Virus genome (UHGV): UHGV-0118441 | Reading direction: 5' to 3' (one strand) | DNA from: a virus | Length of the DNA: 26,467 bases | Part shown: one piece after another, positions 4,412 through 16,928 of the stretch | Numbering within the stretch: position 1 is the first letter of the stretch | Layout of the letters: every line of letters begins with the position of its first letter | Made by a program: the position numbers and the translations under genes | Notes under the pieces: model-generated | What the model was told of the DNA's origin: nothing | The model's database searches: none | The model's input: the letters and a program-made list of their open reading frames with translations, nothing else

Positions 4412-4638
4412 TGGCTGATGCAATGGATCTCGTACAGCAGCGCGTTGAAGAAGAACGCCAACGCCATATCCGTGCTGCCCGTGCCAAAACGCCGGGCGTG
4501 TCCCGCGTGCTTTGCATTGAGTGTGAAGCGCCAATTCCGCCAGCACGCCGCCGTGCCATTCCGGGTGTGCAGCTTTGCATTACCTGTCAGGAAATCGCAG
4601 AGCTGAAAGGCAAACATTACAACGGAGGTGCTGTATGA
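4411..4638 (+). CDS. TraR/DksA-family C4 zinc-finger protein (75 aa)
   Basis: CIECEAPIPPARRRAIPGVQLCITC: four Cys in the C-x2-C-x17-C-x2-C spacing characteristic of TraR/DksA zinc fingers. AGGAG RBS. Confidence 0.7.
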   Translation: MADAMDLVQQRVEEERQRHIRAARAKTPGVSRVLCIECEAPIPPARRRAIPGVQLCITCQEIAELKGKHYNGGAV

Positions 4639-5492
4639 GCACCATCCTGAAATGGGCGGGAAATAAAACTGCCATAATGTCCGAACTAAAAAAACATCTT
4701 CCTGCTGGCCCGCGACTGGTTGAACCTTTCGCGGGTTCCTGTGCTGTGATGATGGAGACGGATTATCCCAGCTATCTGGTTGCGGATATTAATCCTGATT
4801 TAATCAACCTCTATAAAAAGGTTGCCGCTGATTGTGAATCGTTTATATCTCGCGCCAGAGTTTTATTTGAGATCGCAAACAGGGAGGTGGCTTATTACAA
4901 CATAAGGCAGGAGTTTAATTACTCAACTGAAATTACTGATTTCATGAAAGCGGTATATTTCCTGTATCTCAATCGTCACGGTTACCGTGGTTTATGTCGC
5001 TATAACAAGAGCGGGCATTTCAACATTCCCTACGGTAATTATAAAAATCCGTATTTCCCTGAAAAAGAAATTCGCGCATTTGCAGAAAAGGCCCAGCGAG
5101 CAACGTTTATCTGCGCCAGCTTTGATGAAACGCTGGCGATGTTGAAGGCGGGGGATGTGGTGTATTGCGATCCGCCGTATGACGGTACGTTTTCCGGCTA
5201 TCACACTGACGGCTTCACTGAAGATGACCAGTATCACCTGGCATCTGTTCTTGAACATCGGTCATCAGAAGGACATCCGGTCATTGTTTCTAACAGTGAC
5301 ACATCCCTGATCCGTTCGCTGTATCGCAATTTTACTCACCACTACATCAAGGCAAAACGCAGCATCGGTGTGGCAGCTGGCGAGGGTAAATCAGCAACAG
5401 AAATCATTGCTGTTTCCGGGCCGCGCTGCTGGGTGGGATTTGATTATTCGCGTGGCGTGGATAGTTCTGCCGTGTACGGAGTACGTGCATGA
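4635..5492 (+). CDS. Dam-type (D12 class) N6-adenine DNA methyltransferase
   Basis: ORF 4575..5492; ATG at 4635 with a GGAGGTG RBS ([12 protein letters not shown]...). Cofactor-binding motif FAGSCAV and catalytic DPPY ([10 protein letters not shown]). Start and stop both overlap neighbours as ATGA. Confidence 0.85.
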
Positions 5493-7903: not shown

Positions 7904-7995
7904 TTACGCAGGTTAACAATTCGTGCTCTTAATAATACCAGACATATCAGGCTGATGAACGTAAAAAAACGTTTTACATCAGTAAGATTATTATA

Positions 7996-8015
7996 TACTG
8001 TAAATATAAACAGTG
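7996..8015. promoter_or_regulatory. LexA (SOS) box TACTGTAAATATAAACAGTG
   Basis: Perfect CTGT-N8-ACAG with an AT-rich spacer, 42 bp upstream of the small ORF at 8057. A degenerate second copy may overlap at about 8013-8032. Confidence 0.6.
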
Positions 8016-8056
8016 GTTATGTATACAGTATTTCTTGTGGTGTTATAGGAGGAAAG

Positions 8057-8245
8057 ATGCAGGACTATTTTTTGGAGTCTTTGAAGCTCCAGCGCATTGA
8101 TTTTTTTCTTAAGCTTGTAGCGGCTAGTGAGTGTAGTGATGAAGAGAAAGGGCTGGCTCTGCAGTGGGTTTCTGAACTGACAGATGAACTCATGGCAAAA
8201 ATCAGAAGCCACGAATACAACCGCTCAATGGATGTCATCAGCTGA
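8057..8245 (+). CDS. Small SOS-controlled protein (62 aa); possible Tum-like antirepressor by position
   Basis: ORF 7955..8245; ATG at 8057 with an AGGAGG RBS, immediately downstream of the LexA box. No homology recognised; the antirepressor idea is by analogy with the 186 LexA-controlled tum operon. Confidence 0.45.
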   Translation: MQDYFLESLKLQRIDFFLKLVAASECSDEEKGLALQWVSELTDELMAKIRSHEYNRSMDVIS

Positions 8246-8255
8246 GGTGACTTTT

Positions 8256-8489
8256 ATGCGCATTGAAATAATGATCGATAAAGAGCAGAAGATTAGCCAG
8301 TCTACCCTGGACGCCCTTGAATCCGAGCTTTACCGCAATCTGCGCCCCCTGTATCCCAAAACGGTAATTCGCATTCGCAAAGGTAGCTCTAACGGTGTGG
8401 AACTAACCGGACTGCAACTGGATGAAGAAAGAAAACAAGTGATGAAAATTATGCAGAAGGTGTGGGAGGACGACAGCTGGCTGCATTAA
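8256..8489 (+). CDS. dinI: DinI-family protein (77 aa)
   Basis: ORF 8184..8489; ATG at 8256 with a GAGGTG RBS. MRIEIMIDKEQ...VMKIMQKVWEDDSWLH matches the DinI N-terminal MRIEV motif and acidic W-rich C-terminal helix. Confidence 0.8.
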   Translation: MRIEIMIDKEQKISQSTLDALESELYRNLRPLYPKTVIRIRKGSSNGVELTGLQLDEERKQVMKIMQKVWEDDSWLH

Positions 8490-8895
8490 GAAACATTGCC
8501 CCCAGGAGGATTCATTCTGATGGGGGCTAGTTTGGGTAGCGAGTGAAACGAGGCGTAAGGTGGGCGGCCATTTTGATAAGTGATTGTACGATTTGTGTTG
8601 TGAGTTCAACGGGTCGATGCAACGCTATCCTTAATCAAGGGGACGTTGCTCATACCCATCGATGCAATGAAAATCCATACTCATGGGGAAGACCAGAATG
8701 TCCCTGCCTTTTTCATTTTGTTCAGCACATGCACTATGGCCATTTCCTTCCCAAGCTAGCTATCGTAATCACTCAGCGTCAGTAAACTACTGAAAAATTG
8801 TTTTACCTTGTATATCAATAATGCCAAATCATACCCAAAAAATCGAAAATAATTAGATCGACAGGCAGAAGGCAATGTGAATAATCTTAAAAACC

Positions 8896-8956: not shown

Positions 8957-9538
8957 ATGAGCGAAAGGAAAAGAATTGAAGATCAGTATCTTCTCTATCA
9001 TTTAACATGTATGGATAATCTACCTAGTATTTTAGATACAGGATTAAGATCTCGTGCATCAGTAAAAGGTGAGTTTGTTGATGTGGCCGACGGTGAAATA
9101 ATAACAGGTCGCGAAGCATTAAATTTGCAAACAATGGTTCCTTTTCATTTCTTTACTAAGAATCCATTTGATGGAAGAGTCCTGAAAGATCATAAGGAAA
9201 AATCATTTTGTATTATTTCGGTTTGTCGGGCATTTGCCAAAGAAAATGGTTGGAAAGTTATCCCTAAACATCCATTATCCACCAGTTCTTTTATAGACCT
9301 CTTAGATTATGAACAAGGAATGGCCCAAATTGACTGGGAGCTAATGAATATAAGGGATTATAAAAATGCAGAATGCAAATCTGTATGTATGGCTGAGTGT
9401 TTATCAAGTGTAACGGTCGAGCCGAAAAATTTCCATTGCATCTTTGTCAAAAATGATAACGAAAAAAAATATGTTGAAGGGTTGATAAAACAACAAGGAT
9501 TAAGTATATTGATAACGATCAACACTTATATGTTCTAA
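8957..9538 (+). CDS. darT: DarT (DUF4433) ssDNA ADP-ribosyltransferase toxin, 193 aa
   Basis: N-terminal LYHLTCMDNLPSIL, central VPFHFF and C-terminal DWELMNIRDY...MAECL segments match the DarT family as I recall it (Thermus DarT IYHITHIDNL..IL, PFYF, QAEFLV with catalytic Glu). Followed 4 nt later by a macrodomain gene. Confidence 0.75.
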   Translation: MSERKRIEDQYLLYHLTCMDNLPSILDTGLRSRASVKGEFVDVADGEIITGREALNLQTMVPFHFFTKNPFDGRVLKDHKEKSFCIISVCRAFAKENGWKVIPKHPLSTSSFIDLLDYEQGMAQIDWELMNIRDYKNAECKSVCMAECLSSVTVEPKNFHCIFVKNDNEKKYVEGLIKQQGLSILITINTYMF

Positions 9539-9542
9539 TTCT

Positions 9543-10514
9543 ATGATTAAGTATGCAAGCGGAAATCTTCTAAACTCTACATCGCAAGCTCTTGTGAATG
9601 CTGTAAACTGCCAAGGAGTCATGGGAAAGGGTATTGCTTTGGCTTTTAAAGAAACTTTTCCCTATAATTTCGAAGTTTATAAGAGAGCATGCGCCACTGG
9701 TACAATGAAAATTGGACAGGTTTTAATTGTAGAGGAAAAGGGAAAAATAATTGTAAACTTTCCCACTAAAGATAGTTGGAGAAAAAAATCAACATATGAT
9801 TTTATCTCGCAAGGCCTTGAATCTTTAGCAAAAATTATAGATGAAAAAAAAATTACATCAATATCAATACCACCTTTAGGCTGTGGTAATGGGGGCCTCG
9901 ATTGGAATAAGGTTGAGGCTCTTATTTTAAAAACTTTTCAAAATTTAGATAATGTTGATGTGGTAATTTATCCGCCTGCAACTAACAATCAACTTTCAAA
10001 AAATAAAAATGTTATTAATGCTAAGCATCTTTTGGTTCACTACGCCTATGGAAAATTAAAAGTTAAGCAAAAATATTCCCTTTATACAGTTTTTTATATT
10101 TGCGAATGTATTGAGAAAGCAAATCTTTTTTTATTCGATTTTAAACATGGTCGGCCATACTCTTCTGAGTTAGAAAATATTATGAAGGATATAGCAAACC
10201 TTAAAGTTGAGTTGCAAGGAGATTTTGATGCTTTTATTGAAGATTATATTAATACTCATCAATCCAAAGAGTTACAAACCGAGTTTGGTAAACTAATCTC
10301 AACTTTAAATCCAAGTATAAGTTTGCTCAATGCTCTTAAAAATAAGATTGATTATACAGATAGCGTACATGTGATCACGAGAATTGCTAAAGAAAAAGAT
10401 CATGGCTTGCATATTGACAATTTCAAAGAATATGAAAATATTGTGCAGCATTTAATTAAAAATGGATTGGTAATCGAAGATATTTTTAACGAACTAAAAA
10501 TAAAGGGAAGTTAG
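9543..10514 (+). CDS. darG: DarG antitoxin, N-terminal TARG1-like macrodomain (ADP-ribosyl hydrolase), 323 aa
   Basis: N-terminus GNLL...ALVNAVNCQGVMGKGIALAF and later PPLGCGNGGLDW are hallmark macrodomain motifs of DarG/TARG1. Translationally coupled to darT. Confidence 0.8.
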   Translation: MIKYASGNLLNSTSQALVNAVNCQGVMGKGIALAFKETFPYNFEVYKRACATGTMKIGQVLIVEEKGKIIVNFPTKDSWRKKSTYDFISQGLESLAKIIDEKKITSISIPPLGCGNGGLDWNKVEALILKTFQNLDNVDVVIYPPATNNQLSKNKNVINAKHLLVHYAYGKLKVKQKYSLYTVFYICECIEKANLFLFDFKHGRPYSSELENIMKDIANLKVELQGDFDAFIEDYINTHQSKELQTEFGKLISTLNPSISLLNALKNKIDYTDSVHVITRIAKEKDHGLHIDNFKEYENIVQHLIKNGLVIEDIFNELKIKGS

Positions 10515-11066
10515 TAGCGCTATTTTCAATTTTTTTGCTGAAATTGCGCATGCACACTCTCACGCATTATAGATGCGGCGTTAATCCCGCCAGGAGTGTT
10601 GTTTAATAAATTGAACTATTTCTGCATTGAAGGATCAACTTACGCATTCGCTGACAACGCAGGCACTCTCCTGGCTAAGCAGAAATTCAGAGTAACCAAC
10701 TGGCACTTTTACAACAATTTTCTTATCAGTTGCGGCTCCATGACTTTCTGGTGGGATAACAAAGCAATTAAGGCGTGGTATTGTAAGTATCCCGCATAAT
10801 CATGCTAGTAACATTTGTCCCCCATGTAACCTAATTAAGGCAACTTCCGCTCTTCGCTCACAGTGAACCTCCATGTTTGTAAACCCGTATATTTCGTTTT
10901 TTAAGTGGTCATTCAGATACGGATTTTCACTTCTCTTGGCTGTGCATGACTATGCTGCATGAAATTGCATGATCGTTTGAGGATCGTTTTTGCTGAGGCC
11001 CCCCAGAACTGGCGGGCTTTCGCTTATGTCATGCAGGTGCATGAAAATCACTGCATAAAGCGGGCA

Positions 11067-11085
11067 GGCGTGGCGGGGATACGAG
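11067..11085. other. Candidate cos cohesive-end sequence (GGCGTGGCGGGGATACGAG), P2/186-type
   Basis: First 13 nt match my recollection of the P2/186 19-nt cohesive end (GGCG[A/T]GGCGGGGAAAGCA[C/T]), followed by CGCGCGCT as at the P2 left end. Position between gene A and portal Q fits P2 synteny. From memory, not a database match. Confidence 0.55.
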
Positions 11086-11164
11086 CGCGCGCTAACTAAA
11101 AAGCTAGAGAATCTGTGAATTTTTCAATAGTATTATTCTTAGTTAACTAAAGGAGAATCTTATC

Positions 11165-12229
11165 ATGGCAGAAAACGGACCTCGTGAAGACTTGGCGAAG
11201 CTGGTGTCCCATAAACTATTGGAAAGATTTAAGTGGAAGCAACACGGTCCGACCGATCATGATTTTCCGTGTACTGAACAAGAATTACACAAGCCAGCGG
11301 AAAAAACGCAAGACCACACACATCCAGTTGATATTGTCTTTCATTATAAAGATCCTTACTTAAATAAAATTGTTTATCTAAATACTGATTTGAAAAGTTA
11401 TTCAAAAGGGTCTTTAAATTCTAAAATGGTTGAAAATGCTTTAGATTCCTTAGCAAAAACTATTCATTGTGCGCAGAATAGTCAGGTATGGAAAAATCGC
11501 TATGAGACAACCATGTCTAAAAGTGAAGTACGAGGGTTACTTTTTGTATATAATCATGATAATGACTATAAGCATAATTTCTATGACTATTTTTATCCTC
11601 CTAAACCCAAAAAAGGGAAAAGACCTGCGGCAGTTAATTTAGACAGAGTAAATGTATCTGAAAATCAGCAAATACATATAATTGAGCCACGAACTATTAG
11701 TTATCTTATGTCTGTTGTTGCTGATATGAACGAAATGATTGCGGAAAATAAATTCCCGCGTGATGATTATGGGTTCTATTATCCTCAATTAATACTTCAT
11801 AAGGTTGTGACTGCAGAAGAATATCTTCCAGCTACAGTGGAAACTCTAACATCCCCCTACATGATAATTAAACATGGTCCAGTAATAGAATATAATAGAG
11901 CTAAAAAGGAGGACGAGCTGGTTTATCCTGAAGGGTTTATTGTTTATTACAACCGCTCCGGTAAAACAGACTTAGAGTTTAATTATTTATTAGATACTCT
12001 AGCTAACTACCAGATATTAAACTCAAAAAATAATATTAGAATTAGAGTAGCATGTATTGATAAAAGTGAGCACATACGGACTAATTTTATAAAAGCTATA
12101 GAAAAATTTTCATATCAGTGGGGATATGATGAATCTATGAAGGAAAAATTATTATCTATTGAGCTATATATTGTGCCTCTATCTCGAGAGCAATATTTAA
12201 CAGAAGAAAGATCATGGGATGTTAAATAA
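11165..12229 (+). CDS. Unknown protein, 354 aa, first gene of AT-rich cargo operon; possible PD-(D/E)xK-like nuclease motif
   Basis: ATG with an AAGGAGA RBS 8 nt upstream; AT-rich codon usage. HPVD-IVFH ... KIVYLNTDLK is compatible with a PD-x(n)-D-x-K signature. No other motif recognised. Confidence 0.6.
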   Translation: MAENGPREDLAKLVSHKLLERFKWKQHGPTDHDFPCTEQELHKPAEKTQDHTHPVDIVFHYKDPYLNKIVYLNTDLKSYSKGSLNSKMVENALDSLAKTIHCAQNSQVWKNRYETTMSKSEVRGLLFVYNHDNDYKHNFYDYFYPPKPKKGKRPAAVNLDRVNVSENQQIHIIEPRTISYLMSVVADMNEMIAENKFPRDDYGFYYPQLILHKVVTAEEYLPATVETLTSPYMIIKHGPVIEYNRAKKEDELVYPEGFIVYYNRSGKTDLEFNYLLDTLANYQILNSKNNIRIRVACIDKSEHIRTNFIKAIEKFSYQWGYDESMKEKLLSIELYIVPLSREQYLTEERSWDVK

Positions 12230-13305
12230 TGAGTGAAATACACAGTGTTACAGACAAAGCTTTATACGAGGCTTTATGCCAATCACGTGTCACTGATAAT
12301 GATATGGTGGAATTGTTTTTATCCCGTGGAATTTTGGTGTCAAAAAAAACTGAGCGTAAGCAACTAGCAAAAAATTTCTCAAAGCTCACTCATGATTATT
12401 ATTTGCATCAGAAAATTTCTGGAATATTTGGAGGTTTTTTAAGGCGAGAGAAATCTACGGCTATAGTTATTAAGAATAATATTGATAAGCCACTACTTGT
12501 TAAGGCTGCTAATAAGCTTAAAGATCAGCTGGAAAGCGAAGATGATATATGTCATGTAATCAGTGATAAAGATTCTATTAAAATTAGCATTACATACTTA
12601 TCAACCAATTTTGGTAAAAGTGAATTTAACCAAGTAGAGAAGAAAACTGCTGTTTTTGAAATCGAGTCCCTTTCGGATGGTTTTTCAATTCGTAGGCCTG
12701 ATAGTGAACAAGCTGAGATTTATAATAAAAAACTACTAAGTATTATCGAACAGGTTATACAAAAGGAAAAAGATATAGAAGCAACGACTTTAGATACAGA
12801 AGAAATCAACCTCGCGAACATCGATGACGCAGATAAAAGAACAGAATTTTTTAAGCGGCTCATCAATGGGTTGGATGGATATGTTTTAGATGATGTTACG
12901 GATGTTTATATCTACCATCCTAAACCTGCTGTCATGGAGGAGGAAGATGGGGATTCTGAAACAGGAATACATATTAGCAAAGCATCTTTGAAAGGAGAGG
13001 GGGTGCTTAAATCTGAAGAGTTGAATTCTTTGTATGATAGAGGGTTTTATATTTGGAAAATAAGATGGAGAATAAAGGATAAATCTACTACTCCAGATCT
13101 TTATGATTTTGAAGCTCAGTTTAGTGATCCTTTAGAGTTTAAGAGCTTTTCATATATTTCTAGAGGGGTGAGGAAATATAAAGGTGCCGGAGAATATAAT
13201 AAAAATCCGAGCCAATTACCGGATGATGAAGAATATCATTTTAAAAGACTTATTGAAAAAACGGCGCGTTCAATTATAATGGATATTAATAAAGAGTATG
13301 AGTGA
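12229..13305 (+). CDS. Unknown protein, 358 aa, second gene of cargo operon
   Basis: ATG overlaps the stop of the previous gene (TAATG). Highly charged, Lys/Glu/Asp-rich; no Walker A, HEPN, HTH or other motif recognised. Confidence 0.6.
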   Translation: MSEIHSVTDKALYEALCQSRVTDNDMVELFLSRGILVSKKTERKQLAKNFSKLTHDYYLHQKISGIFGGFLRREKSTAIVIKNNIDKPLLVKAANKLKDQLESEDDICHVISDKDSIKISITYLSTNFGKSEFNQVEKKTAVFEIESLSDGFSIRRPDSEQAEIYNKKLLSIIEQVIQKEKDIEATTLDTEEINLANIDDADKRTEFFKRLINGLDGYVLDDVTDVYIYHPKPAVMEEEDGDSETGIHISKASLKGEGVLKSEELNSLYDRGFYIWKIRWRIKDKSTTPDLYDFEAQFSDPLEFKSFSYISRGVRKYKGAGEYNKNPSQLPDDEEYHFKRLIEKTARSIIMDINKEYE

Positions 13306-13313
13306 GATAACAA

Positions 13314-14018
13314 ATGAAAACACTGGATAAAATTAAGTGGAGCAGAGTGAAGTTATCAATAACCTTCTCTGAACTAATTGATTATTTTAAACGTAATTCT
13401 TATGATGAAAGTAAAGGTTATGGTTATACTTTTGTGAATTTTACTGAACATGAAGTTTCCGCTTCTTATGTTGAAAAGTCATTGCGTACAGAAGTTATTG
13501 TATCGCCCGCGGGAGATGAGATAGAACAAGATTTTTTAGAGTATGAAACCATAAAATTTGCATTAAAGCCCGTATCTAAAAATCTCTCTTTATTGGCTAT
13601 TTTTAATCCCCCTAAATCTATAAAGAAATTGACGGATAGACTTAGTGTAGATTTCAATTATAGGGTTGGATTTGGTTCAATTACCTTAAATTTAAAGGAG
13701 TATATAAATTATCTAAGTTTACAGCATTCAATAAGTCTATTACATATTGATAAAATTAAAGTTAGCAATGTTGTGTTAAATGGGAACTCCAAGGCCTCGG
13801 TTGAGATAACTTCCACAAAAAATGCATTGTTAGAGCTAGAAAGTATTTTTACTAACAAAAAATATAATATAGATAAAGTTAGGTTGCATTGTTTGATTTA
13901 CGGGGAACCTTCTTTTGTTGAGCTTTCAAAAAGCGCTTTTATTAATTCAGATTCTAATCATCTGGATTTTTACTCCGACTTCCTCATTCAGCAATTATCT
14001 AATGATGAATTTCGTTAA
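13314..14018 (+). CDS. Unknown protein, 234 aa, third gene of cargo operon
   Basis: ATG 8 nt after the previous stop; same strand and AT-rich composition. No recognisable motif. Confidence 0.55.
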   Translation: MKTLDKIKWSRVKLSITFSELIDYFKRNSYDESKGYGYTFVNFTEHEVSASYVEKSLRTEVIVSPAGDEIEQDFLEYETIKFALKPVSKNLSLLAIFNPPKSIKKLTDRLSVDFNYRVGFGSITLNLKEYINYLSLQHSISLLHIDKIKVSNVVLNGNSKASVEITSTKNALLELESIFTNKKYNIDKVRLHCLIYGEPSFVELSKSAFINSDSNHLDFYSDFLIQQLSNDEFR

Positions 14019-14020
14019 TA

Positions 14021-14040
14021 AAGGCGGGTATGCCCGCCTT
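14021..14040. terminator. GC-rich hairpin (AAGGCGGG-tatg-CCCGCCTT) between the cargo operon and the 3' end of portal gene Q
   Basis: 8-bp perfect stem, 4-nt loop, 2 nt after the gene-3 stop; T-rich only on the minus strand, so it may terminate the Q-P transcript or act in both directions. Confidence 0.45.
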
Positions 14041-14124
14041 GCTGGCGATATGTTGAGCTACGCTCAATTGACTTTTCTATTTATATGGTTATTAATTGAT
14101 TTGTTTATAATATCTGAATTTTTA

Positions 14125-15162
14125 TTAAGTTGCCTTTTCAAGCTTGTAAGGGATAAAACGTATAATCTCGTGGCCGAGCCAGCAGTTAAGCTCCATTATT
14201 AGCTTCTGTAGTGGCAATAATTCATTCCTTACAAATACATTACTTGCCTTCTCCACATCCCCAAACCCCCCAACATTATTCGGCATAATCCCCATCATTT
14301 GTGGCGGCACACGATGTGCCGCCATCATGTCATCCCGGCTCACGTTCTTGATGTTCAGAAATTCATCCTTTGCCGCGACTTCTGACAACGGGATAATCTG
14401 AAGACCATCCTTTTTGCCGTTAGGTGAGTACATAAACAGGTTGCGGAAGTTGCCTGGACCTTTGGCGCTTTTCATTGCGTTGCGGAGGTTGTTCACATCC
14501 TCCTGGTTCTGCGCAGCATCGGTCATGTACATGATGAAGCCAGCATGACTGCCGTTAATGTAATACTTTCGGCGGAACAGCGTGGCGGACTCATTGAGCA
14601 GGGCGGACGGAATGGCAGAAAGATAGCCGGGCAGGCCGTAGATCTCCTGGTTAATGTCCGGTTCCATCAGATGAAAAATGCTGCCTTTCGTGAACTGATA
14701 CGGCTGGGTTGTCATACCGTATTGCACAAACCAGTAGGTATCCAGGTCTAACCCGCGTCGGGTGTATTTTGCCAGAGCAGGCTCAAGGGCGATAACTTCA
14801 CCGAAGCGGTTCGTGCGTTTCTCCAGGTAGGCGTTACCAAATACCAGATAGTCCTGCACAAAACGTGAAAAAGCCTGCTGGCTGAGCAGCGGGTGGGGGA
14901 TGTAGGTACTGGTCAGAATGTTGCATTTCACCGCAATTGGTGAACTGTGATGCACGGCGGCGCGGAAGGTGCGCGCCAGTCCGTCAAAGCTTACTGGCGG
15001 CTCATACCAGCGATCTGTCTGTACGCATTCCACATAGTCCAGTAGTTCGCGGCGGTCCAGAACAGGAACGGGATCACCGAAGCTGAATGCTTCGGCTGTA
15101 GTTTGACTTTTATGCTGGATCTGGTTCGTCGACGCAGCGCGGTTCTTCTTACTCTTTCCCAT
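14125..15162 (-). CDS. Q: Portal protein (P2 gpQ family)
   Basis: ORF 14125..15165; about 345 aa from the ATG at 15162. Size, synteny (downstream of and overlapping the large terminase gene as ATGA) and orientation relative to cos match P2 Q. Confidence 0.85.
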   Translation of the reverse strand: MGKSKKNRAASTNQIQHKSQTTAEAFSFGDPVPVLDRRELLDYVECVQTDRWYEPPVSFDGLARTFRAAVHHSSPIAVKCNILTSTYIPHPLLSQQAFSRFVQDYLVFGNAYLEKRTNRFGEVIALEPALAKYTRRGLDLDTYWFVQYGMTTQPYQFTKGSIFHLMEPDINQEIYGLPGYLSAIPSALLNESATLFRRKYYINGSHAGFIMYMTDAAQNQEDVNNLRNAMKSAKGPGNFRNLFMYSPNGKKDGLQIIPLSEVAAKDEFLNIKNVSRDDMMAAHRVPPQMMGIMPNNVGGFGDVEKASNVFVRNELLPLQKLIMELNCWLGHEIIRFIPYKLEKAT

Positions 15163-16928
15163 CAAAAAATCTCCACAATATTACTGGTATTGGCGGACTC
15201 GCCCTGCAGTGGTTCGTTAAACAGTGCGTGCATTGTTGCCCAGGCCAGATCGGCGTGGCTGGCTTCTTCGCTGCGGCTGGCTTCATAGGTCGGGCGGTTG
15301 CCACTGGCGGTGGTTGCGCGACGGATTGCCATGAATGACTGCGCAATGTCGGTGTGCCCGGCGTCAAACTCCAGACGGCGGTGGCTGATAATGTCGTAGG
15401 CCTTGAGTACCAGGGCGTTTTTAACATTGGGGTTATAGACAAACTCCCGGACGGCTGGAAAGAACGCTTTCACGTTCTCGTAAACCCCGTGACCGACGCC
15501 GGTCGAGTCAATACCGATGTACGTCACGTTGTACTGTTCGGTCAGTTTTTTGATGGCATCAGCCTGGGCGCGGAAGTCCATCCCGCGCCACTGGTGACGT
15601 TCAAGAATGCGGAACTTGCCGCCCGGTACGGCTGGCGGTGCCACCACCACGCATCCGGCGCTGTCGCCGTTCTGCGTACCTTTTGCCGGGTCATAACCAA
15701 TCCATACTTCGCGCCAGCCAAACGGGCGCAGCGCCAGTGCATGGAAGTCGGTCCAGACTTCCCAGCTGTCCACCATGCACGCCTGCAGCTCGCTGAGCGG
15801 GAACACGGACGCGAGATCGTCCACGAACTCACACATCAGCAGGTTCTGGTATTCGTCCGGGCTGTACTCCATGCGCAACTGGTCGAGGTCGAACAGGTTA
15901 CAGCCGCCGTGCACCGCATCTTCCACGGTGACTATCTGGCGGTATTGCCCGTCTGCGCACAGCAGGCCGGGGGCCAGATTGTTATGGGACAGGTCGATGT
16001 CCACCTTGTCGGCTTTGTTGCGCCCACGGTTGAACAGCGCACCGGACCAGAACGGATAAGCACTGTGGGTCAGGCTGGATGGCGTGGAAAAATAAGTTTG
16101 TCGCCATTTTTTGTGAATAGCCATACCGGAAGCCACTTTGCGCAGCTCCTGAAATTTCGGTATCCAGAAATATTCATCCAGATACAGGTTGCCGTGATAA
16201 CTCTGGGCCGTGCGGGCATTGGTGCCGAGGAAGTAAAGTGTGGCCCCGTTAGGAAGCACCATCGGATCGCCTTTCAGCTCCACCTCCACTTCTTTGGCGA
16301 AGTCGATGATGTACTGCTTAAAGACGTGAGCCTGTGCCTTACTGGCAGAAAGGAAAATCTGGTTACGTCCGGTAAGCAGGGCGTCAATCAGGGCTTCACG
16401 GGCAAAGTAAAAGGTCGCACCGATCTGGCGTGACTTCAGCAGGTTGCGGATGCGGTTGGTTTTTCCGGCTTCCCACCAGTGGCGCTGGTAGTTGAACATG
16501 GAGGAATGGAAGATTTCTTCCAGCTTCTCAATCTGTTCATCGGTGAAAACGTTCTTTTCCGGCTGACGACGCGGGCCTTTGTTGCGGTTGGCGACGTTAG
16601 GGTTTAAGTCGGCTTCGTTGCCGCCATTGTTAAACTTGCCGATCCGCGCGTGGCGCTCCGACTGGCGCGCCAGCAGATCAATTTCTTTGAAATCTTTCCC
16701 TTCTTTGTGCTCCTTCATAATGAGCTGGCAGTAACGTGCGGCGGTGGTGAGCTGCATCTGATCCAGCGGCCCGTAGTCACCCCACTTGTCGCGTTTTTTC
16801 CAGCTGTGAACGGTTGCAACTTTCTCGCCCAGCATTTCAGCAATGCGGGCGACGCGGTATCCCTGAAAGTACAGCAGCATGGCCTGCCGACGGGGATCGA
16901 GATCTGCGGGTGTCAGTGTGGTGTTCAT
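15162..16928 (-). CDS. P: Terminase large (ATPase) subunit (P2 gpP family), 588 aa
   Basis: Size and divergent arrangement from the capsid operon as in P2 P/O. The antisense 359-aa ORF on the plus strand is treated as spurious. Confidence 0.85.
   Translation of the reverse strand: MNTTLTPADLDPRRQAMLLYFQGYRVARIAEMLGEKVATVHSWKKRDKWGDYGPLDQMQLTTAARYCQLIMKEHKEGKDFKEIDLLARQSERHARIGKFNNGGNEADLNPNVANRNKGPRRQPEKNVFTDEQIEKLEEIFHSSMFNYQRHWWEAGKTNRIRNLLKSRQIGATFYFAREALIDALLTGRNQIFLSASKAQAHVFKQYIIDFAKEVEVELKGDPMVLPNGATLYFLGTNARTAQSYHGNLYLDEYFWIPKFQELRKVASGMAIHKKWRQTYFSTPSSLTHSAYPFWSGALFNRGRNKADKVDIDLSHNNLAPGLLCADGQYRQIVTVEDAVHGGCNLFDLDQLRMEYSPDEYQNLLMCEFVDDLASVFPLSELQACMVDSWEVWTDFHALALRPFGWREVWIGYDPAKGTQNGDSAGCVVVAPPAVPGGKFRILERHQWRGMDFRAQADAIKKLTEQYNVTYIGIDSTGVGHGVYENVKAFFPAVREFVYNPNVKNALVLKAYDIISHRRLEFDAGHTDIAQSFMAIRRATTASGNRPTYEASRSEEASHADLAWATMHALFNEPLQGESANTSNIVEIF

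What the first reader, a model, noticed from the sequence alone, without database searches (positions are those of the whole stretch)
11165..14018. AT-rich three-gene operon of unrecognisable proteins wedged between cos and the portal gene: candidate undescribed anti-phage system
Three co-oriented ORFs (354, 358, 234 aa) are tightly coupled (TAATG overlap, then an 8-nt gap) and run opposite to the adjacent portal gene. They are conspicuously AT-rich (roughly one-third G+C by eye, not computed) against a >50% G+C structural backbone, which suggests recent horizontal acquisition. I cannot place any of the three in a family: no Walker A/B, HEPN Rx4-6H, TIR/SIR2, reverse-transcriptase, TOPRIM or obvious HTH signatures. 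The only hint is a possible PD-(D/E)xK-like motif in the first protein. The locus sits where P2-like phages carry variable defence cargo, and the cargo on the other side of cos is DarTG, a known defence module.
Basis: partly seen in the sequence, partly recalled or inferred. Interest (0 to 1): 0.9.

Follow-up and report, generated by a model that had tools for sequence, protein, structure and literature searches.

The report
Known 3HP anti-phage operon, divergent copy
The three "unrecognisable" genes are a divergent copy of 3HP, an anti-phage system already described and tested in P2-like prophages, and fold and profile comparisons suggest it is a nuclease attached to a DNA-encircling ring, related to the GAPS4 defence system.

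Summary
Three tightly coupled, co-oriented ORFs (354, 358 and 234 aa) lie at 11165-14018. They are 32.8% G+C against a 56% backbone and sit between cos (core at 11067) and the convergent portal gene.

The interpretation "undescribed system" does not hold. All three proteins hit the PADLOC models Hp1, Hp2 and Hp3 (E = 3e-62, 1.5e-40, 3e-14). They are collinear homologues (37%, 29% and 25% identity) of the "hp + hp + hp" system from E. coli E1114. Rousset et al. 2022 cloned that system from the same P2 cos-proximal hotspot and showed it protects against phage P1. DefenseFinder calls it Rst_3HP.

Across 161 related loci, the order Hp1-Hp2-Hp3 is kept in all 146 complete ones.

New here:
- Hp1 is a PD-(D/E)xK nuclease (invariant HPxD...DLK) distantly related to GapS4a.
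- Hp2 is a collinear distant relative of GapS4b.

Best mechanism (inferred): a GAPS4-like DNA-sensing ring made of Hp2 and Hp3 licenses the Hp1 DNase. This is a new member of a known kind, of moderate interest.

The parts
11067..11086 (+). P2-type cos core (GGCGTGGCGGGGATACGAGC), 98 bp upstream of the Hp1 start. It marks the boundary between the two cargo slots of the A-Q hotspot.
   Evidence: Sequence read. Pattern search. The same motif lies just 5' of Hp1 in 66 related loci.
11087..11164 (+). AT-rich leader with the Shine-Dalgarno sequence AAGGAG about 8 nt before the ATG. It presumably holds the native promoter (inferred; the consensus scan called none here).
11165..12229 (+). Hp1 (354 aa): PD-(D/E)xK nuclease and predicted effector. 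Invariant H53-P54-x-D56 and D75-L76-K77-S78. Distant relative of GapS4a.
   Evidence: PADLOC Hp1 3.2e-62. 37% identity to the validated E1114 Hp1, E = 6e-64. NCBIfam GapS4a 1.7e-10 and 15 of 38 family members hit it. Precomputed Pfam PF26115 on homologues. Invariant motif. RefSeq annotates the same protein as 'PD-(D/E)XK nuclease domain-containing protein'.
12229..13305 (+). Hp2 (358 aa): conserved N-terminal four-helix domain (residues 1-70), then an RdgC-fold body (about 76-358) with an acidic disordered loop at 230-250. Distant, collinear relative of GapS4b.
13314..14018 (+). Hp3 (234 aa): stand-alone RdgC-fold protein with no conserved catalytic residues. It is the fastest-evolving of the three and is the component that GAPS4 lacks.
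14023..14068 (.). Intergenic stem-loops between the convergent Hp3 and portal genes: GGCGGGTATGCCCGCC at 14023-14038, plus a terminator-like hairpin at 14052-14068.
   Evidence: These are consensus-level matches only.

Best explanation
The locus is a divergent member of the known three-gene anti-phage system 3HP (PADLOC 3HP, DefenseFinder Rst_3HP), carried as cargo in the cos-to-Q slot of a 186/P2-like prophage.

Proposed mechanism:
- Hp1 is the effector, a PD-(D/E)xK DNase.
- Hp2 is a GapS4b-type scaffold. Its conserved N-terminal helical domain docks Hp1, and its RdgC-fold body helps form a DNA-encircling ring or horseshoe.
- Hp3 is a second RdgC-fold subunit. It either completes the ring as a heterodimer with Hp2 (as Iml3-Chl4 do) or gates it.
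- By analogy with GAPS4, the ring senses free or linear DNA ends produced during infection and licenses Hp1 to degrade DNA. This blocks phage replication, probably at the cost of the cell (abortive infection).

Shown here: family membership, the invariant nuclease motif, the RdgC folds, remote homology to GapS4a/b, and strict three-gene synteny.

Inferred: complex formation, ring geometry, the DNA-end trigger, the abortive outcome, and activity of this particular copy.
For: Family membership: PADLOC Hp1/Hp2/Hp3 hits; BLASTP to the validated pFR109 proteins at 37/29/25% identity, collinear; PHROGs 7059, 6531 and 5850 at up to 1e-126. A homologue protects E. coli against P1 (PMC9122126).

Obligate trio: 146 of 146 complete loci keep Hp1-Hp2-Hp3 on one strand with overlapping or abutting genes, and all 15 exceptions are cut by contig ends.

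Nuclease: invariant HPxD...DLK; GapS4a HMM hits in the window protein and in 15 of 38 relatives; the equivalent Asp is essential in GAPS4 (preprint 10.1101/2025.09.07.674715).

Hp2 resembles GapS4b: 6 of 36 members hit the model, with a collinear match and the same size.

GAPS4 is an a2b2 complex in which the b subunits form a ring, and it is a DNase triggered by linear DNA. Precedents for RdgC-fold proteins in phage exclusion (RexA) and as DNA-gripping heterodimers (Iml3-Chl4) are in PMC11077077.

The Hp2 N-terminal domain is among its most conserved parts, and Hp1-Hp2 divergence is tightly correlated (r = 0.88), which fits a direct interface.
Against: No experiment exists on this copy, and identity to the validated system is only 25-37%.

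The validated homologue protected against only one of eight phages (P1), whereas GAPS4 is broad. The trigger may therefore differ.

Similarity to GapS4a/b is far below the NCBIfam cut-offs (40.7 against 270 bits; at most 36.5 against 300 bits), and the window's own Hp2 does not hit GapS4b at all.

Hp2 and Hp3 show no sequence-profile similarity to each other (hhalign probability 0.4%). No member hits Pfam RdgC.

No multimer prediction was possible, so ring formation and stoichiometry are untested. Hp2 (pI 5.4) and Hp3 (pI 6.5) are not basic overall.
Confidence: 0.6

Rival explanations
1. Same family and same parts, but a direct, non-abortive restriction-like mode. The Hp2/Hp3 ring threads only onto incoming linear phage DNA ends, and Hp1 degrades that DNA selectively. 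The circular chromosome is spared and the cell survives.
For: A closed RdgC-like ring would load most easily on free ends (general knowledge of RdgC, summarised in PMC11077077). The validated homologue blocks P1, whose injected linear, terminally redundant genome must be cyclised by recombination (my knowledge; phenotype). Deleting single components of other systems in that study was non-toxic, but this was not reported for 3HP.
Against: The related GAPS4 degrades both host and phage DNA and is described as abortive. Nothing in the sequences suggests self/non-self discrimination.
Confidence: 0.2
2. Not primarily a defence system. It would be a prophage-benefit module in which RdgC/RexA-like DNA-binding proteins modulate recombination, RecA/SOS or the lysis-lysogeny switch, with Hp1 serving as a recombination or processing nuclease. 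Any phage exclusion would be a side effect.
For: RdgC inhibits RecA functions, and RexA biases the lambda switch independently of exclusion. The operon always abuts cos with its 5' end. A DinI-like gene, also a RecA modulator, sits in the neighbouring slot.
Against: In genome representatives, 67 of 72 complete loci are not next to P2 A or Q genes, so the trio is not tied to this phage's biology. It is rare and replaceable in the hotspot, present in 5 of 5,426 genomes. A homologue gives anti-phage protection when cloned alone on a plasmid. Its closest sequence relatives outside the family are GAPS4 defence proteins.
Confidence: 0.08
3. An inactive or decaying copy: a recently acquired AT-rich cassette that is silenced (for example by H-NS) or non-functional in this host.
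For: Very low G+C (0.33) is typical of xenogeneic DNA silenced in E. coli (my knowledge; composition). The consensus scan called no promoter upstream of Hp1.
Against: All three ORFs are intact and full-length, with every invariant family residue present. The Shine-Dalgarno sequence and translational coupling are kept. Copies that are 99.6-99.8% identical persist intact in five unrelated E. coli isolates.
Confidence: 0.12

Closest known systems
3HP / Rst_3HP ('hp + hp + hp', plasmid pFR109, E. coli E1114; Rousset et al. 2022, PMC9122126)
   Same: It has three genes in the same order and of similar sizes (333/359/227 aa against 354/358/234 aa). Every protein is homologous (E = 6e-64, 4e-43, 6e-17). 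The PD-(D/E)xK motif is the same. It lies in the same P2 gpA-gpQ cos-proximal hotspot, and its 5' end abuts cos.
   Different: Identity is only 37/29/25%. The window copy sits in the cos-to-Q slot reading toward Q (24 related loci do the same). E1114-like clades sit on the A side of cos in the inverted orientation (42 loci). The phenotype of this clade is untested.
GAPS4 (GapS4a + GapS4b; Mahata et al., bioRxiv 10.1101/2023.03.28.534373 and 10.1101/2025.09.07.674715)
   Same: An N-terminal divergent PD-(D/E)xK nuclease (HGxD-SxK there, HPxD-DxK here) is paired with a roughly 355-aa partner. That partner is detectably and collinearly related to Hp2. GapS4b is predicted to form a ring carrying the nucleases on helical domains, which matches Hp2's helical N-domain plus RdgC-fold body.
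   Different: GAPS4 has two genes, sometimes fused, and forms an a2b2 complex. 3HP has an obligate third gene (Hp3) and no fusions were seen. HMM scores are far below the family cut-offs. The catalytic motif uses D in place of S. GAPS4 has a broad phage range, whereas P1 was the only phage blocked by the tested 3HP.
RdgC (E. coli 2owl, P. aeruginosa 2owy), the recombination-associated toroidal DNA-binding dimer
   Different: There is no sequence similarity (8-12% identity, no Pfam hit). RdgC is a homodimer acting alone on RecA-related processes. Here two different RdgC-fold proteins are coupled to a nuclease.
Lambda RexA (RexAB exclusion) and the Iml3-Chl4 / CENP-L-CENP-N kinetochore heterodimer

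Membership tests
3HP (PADLOC 3HP / DefenseFinder Rst_3HP) | Each of three adjacent proteins matches the Hp1, Hp2 and Hp3 family models | tested here: met
   PADLOC PDLC03004, 03005 and 03006: E = 3.2e-62, 1.5e-40, 3.1e-14, covering most of each profile.
3HP (PADLOC 3HP / DefenseFinder Rst_3HP) | Homology to the experimentally validated E1114 proteins, in the same gene order and on the same strand | tested here: met
   BLASTP gives 37/29/25% identity, E = 6e-64, 4e-43 and 6e-17, collinear. The order 1-2-3 holds in 146 of 146 complete loci.
3HP (PADLOC 3HP / DefenseFinder Rst_3HP) | Confers phage resistance when expressed | not testable with these tools
   Only the E1114 homologue was tested, and it protects against P1.
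GAPS4 | GapS4a and GapS4b proteins reach the NCBIfam family cut-offs | tested here: not met
   Hp1 scores 40.7 bits against a cut-off of 270. The window's Hp2 gives no hit, and the best relative scores 36.5 bits against 300. This is remote homology only.
GAPS4 | Two-gene (or fused single-gene) architecture | tested here: not met
   A third gene, Hp3, is present in every complete locus. No fusions appear among the listed homologues.
GAPS4 | N-terminal non-canonical PD-(D/E)xK motif HGxD-SxK with an essential Asp | tested here: inconclusive
   Hp1 has HPxD...DLK at the equivalent N-terminal position, which is the canonical D-x-K rather than S-x-K. Whether the Asp is essential is untested.
PD-(D/E)xK nuclease superfamily (Hp1) | Conserved D ... 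(D/E)xK catalytic signature on the restriction-endonuclease-like fold | tested here: inconclusive
   The signature is met: D56 and D75-x-K77 are invariant in 30- and 38-sequence alignments. A 99%-identical homologue carries Pfam PF26115.
RdgC family (Pfam RdgC) for Hp2 and Hp3 | Sequence match to the RdgC family model | tested here: not met
   No RdgC hit among 36 Hp2 members in Pfam. No PDB sequence hit for the Hp2 or Hp3 profiles.
RdgC family (Pfam RdgC) for Hp2 and Hp3 | RdgC fold | tested here: met
RdgC family (Pfam RdgC) for Hp2 and Hp3 | Ring-shaped dimer that encircles DNA | not testable with these tools
   No multimer prediction or coordinates were available. This is inferred from RdgC and the GAPS4 AF3 model.
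RexAB | RexA-like sensor paired with a RexB-like multi-pass membrane effector | tested here: not met
   The operon has no membrane protein. The partner is a soluble nuclease.

The most novel reading that the evidence does not exclude
3HP and GAPS4 form one previously unlinked superfamily of 'RdgC-ring plus PD-(D/E)xK nuclease' defence machines. In 3HP the ring has become heteromeric. Hp2 carries the nuclease. Hp3 is a rapidly evolving second RdgC-fold subunit that acts as the specificity or gating subunit, and may be the target of phage counter-defence. The complex therefore reads out a particular DNA-end or recombination-intermediate state, such as uncyclised P1 DNA, rather than any double-strand break. 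This would make the RdgC toroid a recurrent bacterial immune sensor of DNA topology, alongside RexA.
Probability: 0.35. Interest if true: 0.6.

Novelty: new member of a known kind. Interest (0 to 1): 0.35.

Why it matters
As a discovery of a new defence system it does not stand. DefenseFinder or PADLOC would label this locus 3HP, and a homologue was validated in 2022.

Its value is mechanistic. To my knowledge and in the papers searched, 3HP has had no assigned domains or mechanism. This analysis gives a concrete, testable model: a PD-(D/E)xK effector on a GapS4b-like scaffold, plus two RdgC-fold subunits. It ties 3HP to GAPS4, whose trigger (linear DNA or breaks) is known. It also points to Hp3 as the distinguishing, fastest-evolving component.

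It further documents that the two cargo slots flanking the P2 cos site are filled independently (DarTG on one side, 3HP on the other), and that 3HP always abuts cos with its 5' end.

Tried and rejected
- **Pfam on the three proteins** gave only sub-threshold noise.
- **NCBIfam on Hp3** found nothing.
- **Profile searches of all three families against PDB sequences** found nothing significant (best E = 1.3, 0.18 and 0.22).
- **Profile-profile comparison of Hp3 with Hp2** gave no similarity (probability 0.4%), so a claim of Hp2/Hp3 paralogy rests on fold only.
- **Pfam on 36 diverse Hp2 members** gave no RdgC hit and no consistent family.
- **The AFDB50 fold library** was unavailable.
- **The word-indexed homologue search for Hp3** found only 3 relatives. 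The exhaustive HMMER search was needed to find 330.
- **The promoter scan** found no more sites than shuffled sequence and none in the cos-Hp1 leader.
- **Rfam** found no RNA family in the window.
- **A search of the Rousset supplements for the window's own N-terminal peptides** found nothing, so the window is not the tested sequence.
- **Rejected readings:** a structural, packaging or replication function (no such homology; the trio occurs mostly outside P2 contexts in genomes) and a core P2 gene set (5 of 5,426 genomes).
Full report
**Observation.** The window holds three co-oriented ORFs at 11165-12229 (354 aa), 12229-13305 (358 aa) and 13314-14018 (234 aa). The first two overlap as TAATG, and the second and third are 8 nt apart. 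The operon is 32.8% G+C (GC3 about 26%). The structural genes to its right are 56% and gpA is 53% (GC3 58%). The P2-type cos core (GGCGTGGCGGGG...) starts at 11067, 98 bp upstream of the first ATG, which has an AAGGAG ribosome-binding site. The portal gene (14125-15165, - strand, Pfam Phage_portal) is convergent, and stem-loops lie in the 106-bp spacer. The rest of the window is a 186/P2-like prophage: integrase, CI, CII, Dam methylase, gpA, a DinI-like gene, then DarT/DarG at 8957-10514 on the other side of cos.

**What it is.** The three proteins are not unplaceable. Against PADLOC-DB they hit the models Hp1 (3.2e-62), Hp2 (1.5e-40) and Hp3 (3.1e-14). Against PHROGs they hit three families of unknown function at up to 1e-126. 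The Hp models derive from the "hp + hp + hp" system (plasmid pFR109, E. coli E1114). Rousset et al. 2022 cloned it from the P2 hotspot between gpA and gpQ next to cos and showed it "protect[s] against P1" (PMC9122126). Direct BLASTP against the published protein sequences gives 37%, 29% and 25% identity (E = 6e-64, 4e-43, 6e-17), collinear and in the same order. DefenseFinder reports this family as Rst_3HP (usage seen). The locus is therefore a divergent member of a named, experimentally validated defence family.

**Cargo status.** Only 5 of 5,426 complete E. coli genomes carry this operon (99.6-99.8% identity). About 1,250 share just the first ~100 bases of the query, the conserved cos flank. 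In two of those five genomes the same operon sits in a P2-like prophage that has no DarTG in the A-cos slot. One IMG/VR contig combines DarTG with a 57%-identical 3HP. The two slots flanking cos are thus filled independently.

**Family anatomy.** I fetched 161 loci encoding Hp1 relatives: 80 from species-representative genomes, 80 from IMG/VR and one E. coli genome. Iterative HMM searches of their ORFs found all three genes in 146. In every one the order was Hp1-Hp2-Hp3 on one strand, mostly with overlapping or abutting genes. The other 15 are all truncated by a contig end. The trio is therefore an obligate unit.

In viral contigs, 64 of 74 complete loci lie next to P2-type A and/or Q genes. 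In genome representatives (Vibrio, Pseudomonas, Burkholderiales, Rhizobium, cyanobacteria and others), 67 of 72 do not. So the module is mobile and not P2-specific.

Where a cos core is detectable, it always lies just 5' of Hp1. In 24 loci the operon reads toward Q (median 120 bp from cos; this is the window's arrangement). In 42 loci it is inverted and reads toward A (median 230 bp). The latter includes the clades about 36% identical to the window, and it matches the layout of the pFR109 insert.

**Hp1.** In alignments of 30 and 38 diverse members, H53-P54-x-D56 and D75-L76-K77-S78 are invariant, together with E3, N130 and D132, with E226 nearly so. This is a canonical PD-(D/E)xK signature. 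RefSeq already annotates the identical protein in some genomes as "PD-(D/E)XK nuclease domain-containing protein". Homologues carry the precomputed Pfam family PF26115, which UniRef names "GAPS4 PD-(D/E)XK nuclease domain". The window protein hits NCBIfam GapS4a at 1.7e-10 (residues 15-211 against profile positions 16-198 of 302), and 15 of 38 diverse members hit it too (best 3.7e-12). All of these scores are far below the family cut-off, so this is remote homology and not membership.

Hp2 (from residue 76) and Hp3 share the same order of secondary-structure elements, but hhalign finds no sequence-profile similarity between them. Conservation falls in the order Hp1 > Hp2 > Hp3 (mean pairwise identity 38.5%, 29.7% and 19.8%). 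Hp1-Hp2 divergences are tightly correlated (r = 0.88). The Hp2 N-terminal domain is among its best conserved segments.

**Mechanism (inferred).** GAPS4 has been shown to need both proteins, to depend on the Asp of its HGxD-SxK motif, and to purify as an a2b2 complex. In the AF3 model of that complex, the b subunits form a ring and the nucleases dock on b's helical domains. GAPS4 degrades phage and host DNA non-selectively once linear DNA or breaks are sensed (bioRxiv 10.1101/2025.09.07.674715). RdgC is a toroidal dimer through which DNA passes. RexA, a prophage exclusion protein, has the same fold. Iml3-Chl4 shows that two different RdgC-fold subunits can form a DNA-gripping heterodimer (PMC11077077).

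Putting these together, the best-supported model is as follows. Hp1 is the DNase effector. Hp2 is the GapS4b-type scaffold that carries Hp1 on its N-terminal helical domain and contributes half of an RdgC-like ring. Hp3 is a second ring subunit or a gate. Engagement of free DNA ends licenses cleavage. The fast evolution of Hp3 fits a specificity or counter-defence interface. The narrow range of the tested homologue (P1 only) could reflect a more restricted trigger, for example uncyclised terminally redundant DNA; that last point is speculation.

Neither GAPS4 paper mentions 3HP or RdgC. No paper in the searched library gives a mechanism for 3HP.

**Limits.**
- No Hp1 model and no multimer prediction were possible, so the nuclease fold, the complex and the ring are inferred.
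- The GapS4 relationships rest on sub-threshold HMM hits, though they are reciprocal for both proteins and collinear.
- This copy is only 25-37% identical to the tested one and is itself untested.
- The consensus scan found no promoter in the leader.

**Verdict.** The "undescribed system" interpretation is not supported, although "defence cargo" is. The locus is a new, divergent member of the known 3HP family. The added value is a testable mechanistic link between 3HP, GAPS4 and the RdgC fold. Interest is moderate (0.35).

Noticed in passing
window 8957-10514: A DarT/DarG toxin-antitoxin defence module (PADLOC DarT 1.7e-36, DarG 2.8e-80; Pfam DarT and Macro) fills the gpA-to-cos slot. It is equally AT-rich (32.1% G+C). 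Prophages carrying the 99.6-99.8% identical 3HP operon in E. coli FREC5 and 23CRST009 lack it, so the two slots flanking cos are exchanged independently.
   Followed up: partly
window 11067-11165; loci L082-L158: In every related locus where a P2 cos core is detectable (66 loci), it lies immediately 5' of Hp1. The median distance is 120 bp when the operon reads toward Q and 230 bp when it is inverted and reads toward A. The operon start always faces cos in either slot. The reason (promoter sharing, insertion mechanism, early expression from the genome end) is unexplained.
   Followed up: partly
Phage records OR621024.1 and OR621021.1 (Pseudomonas phages 99-2 and 54-4, about 13 kb): Hp1 homologues (31-37% identity) annotated 'nuclease related protein' occur in very small Pseudomonas 'phage' records of 13.2-13.5 kb. 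That size suggests a satellite or filamentous element rather than a P2-like phage. Vibrio prophage elements (PE003) also carry one.
   Followed up: no
window 11165-12226 (Hp1): The local Pfam-A scan reports no family for Hp1, whereas the precomputed table lists PF26115 for a 99%-identical protein and all other listed homologues. The local Pfam copy apparently lacks, or misses, this recent model. A Pfam-only annotation would therefore wrongly look empty.
   Followed up: no
window 14023-14068: Two stem-loops sit between the convergent Hp3 and portal genes. The G+C-rich hairpin GGCGGGTATGCCCGCC is followed by a T-run only on the minus strand, so it may terminate the portal/terminase transcript rather than the 3HP operon.
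   Followed up: no
window 7955-8785 and 10596-10799: There are small ORFs in the A-cos slot. 8184-8489 is DinI-like (Pfam DinI 1.2e-22), a RecA modulator. 7955-8245, 8543-8785 and 10596-10799 have no family hit. The last, a 67-aa GTG-start ORF between DarG and cos, may be spurious.
   Followed up: partly
window 4575-5492: A D12-class N6-adenine DNA methyltransferase (Pfam 1.2e-76) lies just upstream of gpA. It is an orphan Dam-like methylase typical of 186-like phages and could influence restriction or defence interactions.
   Followed up: no
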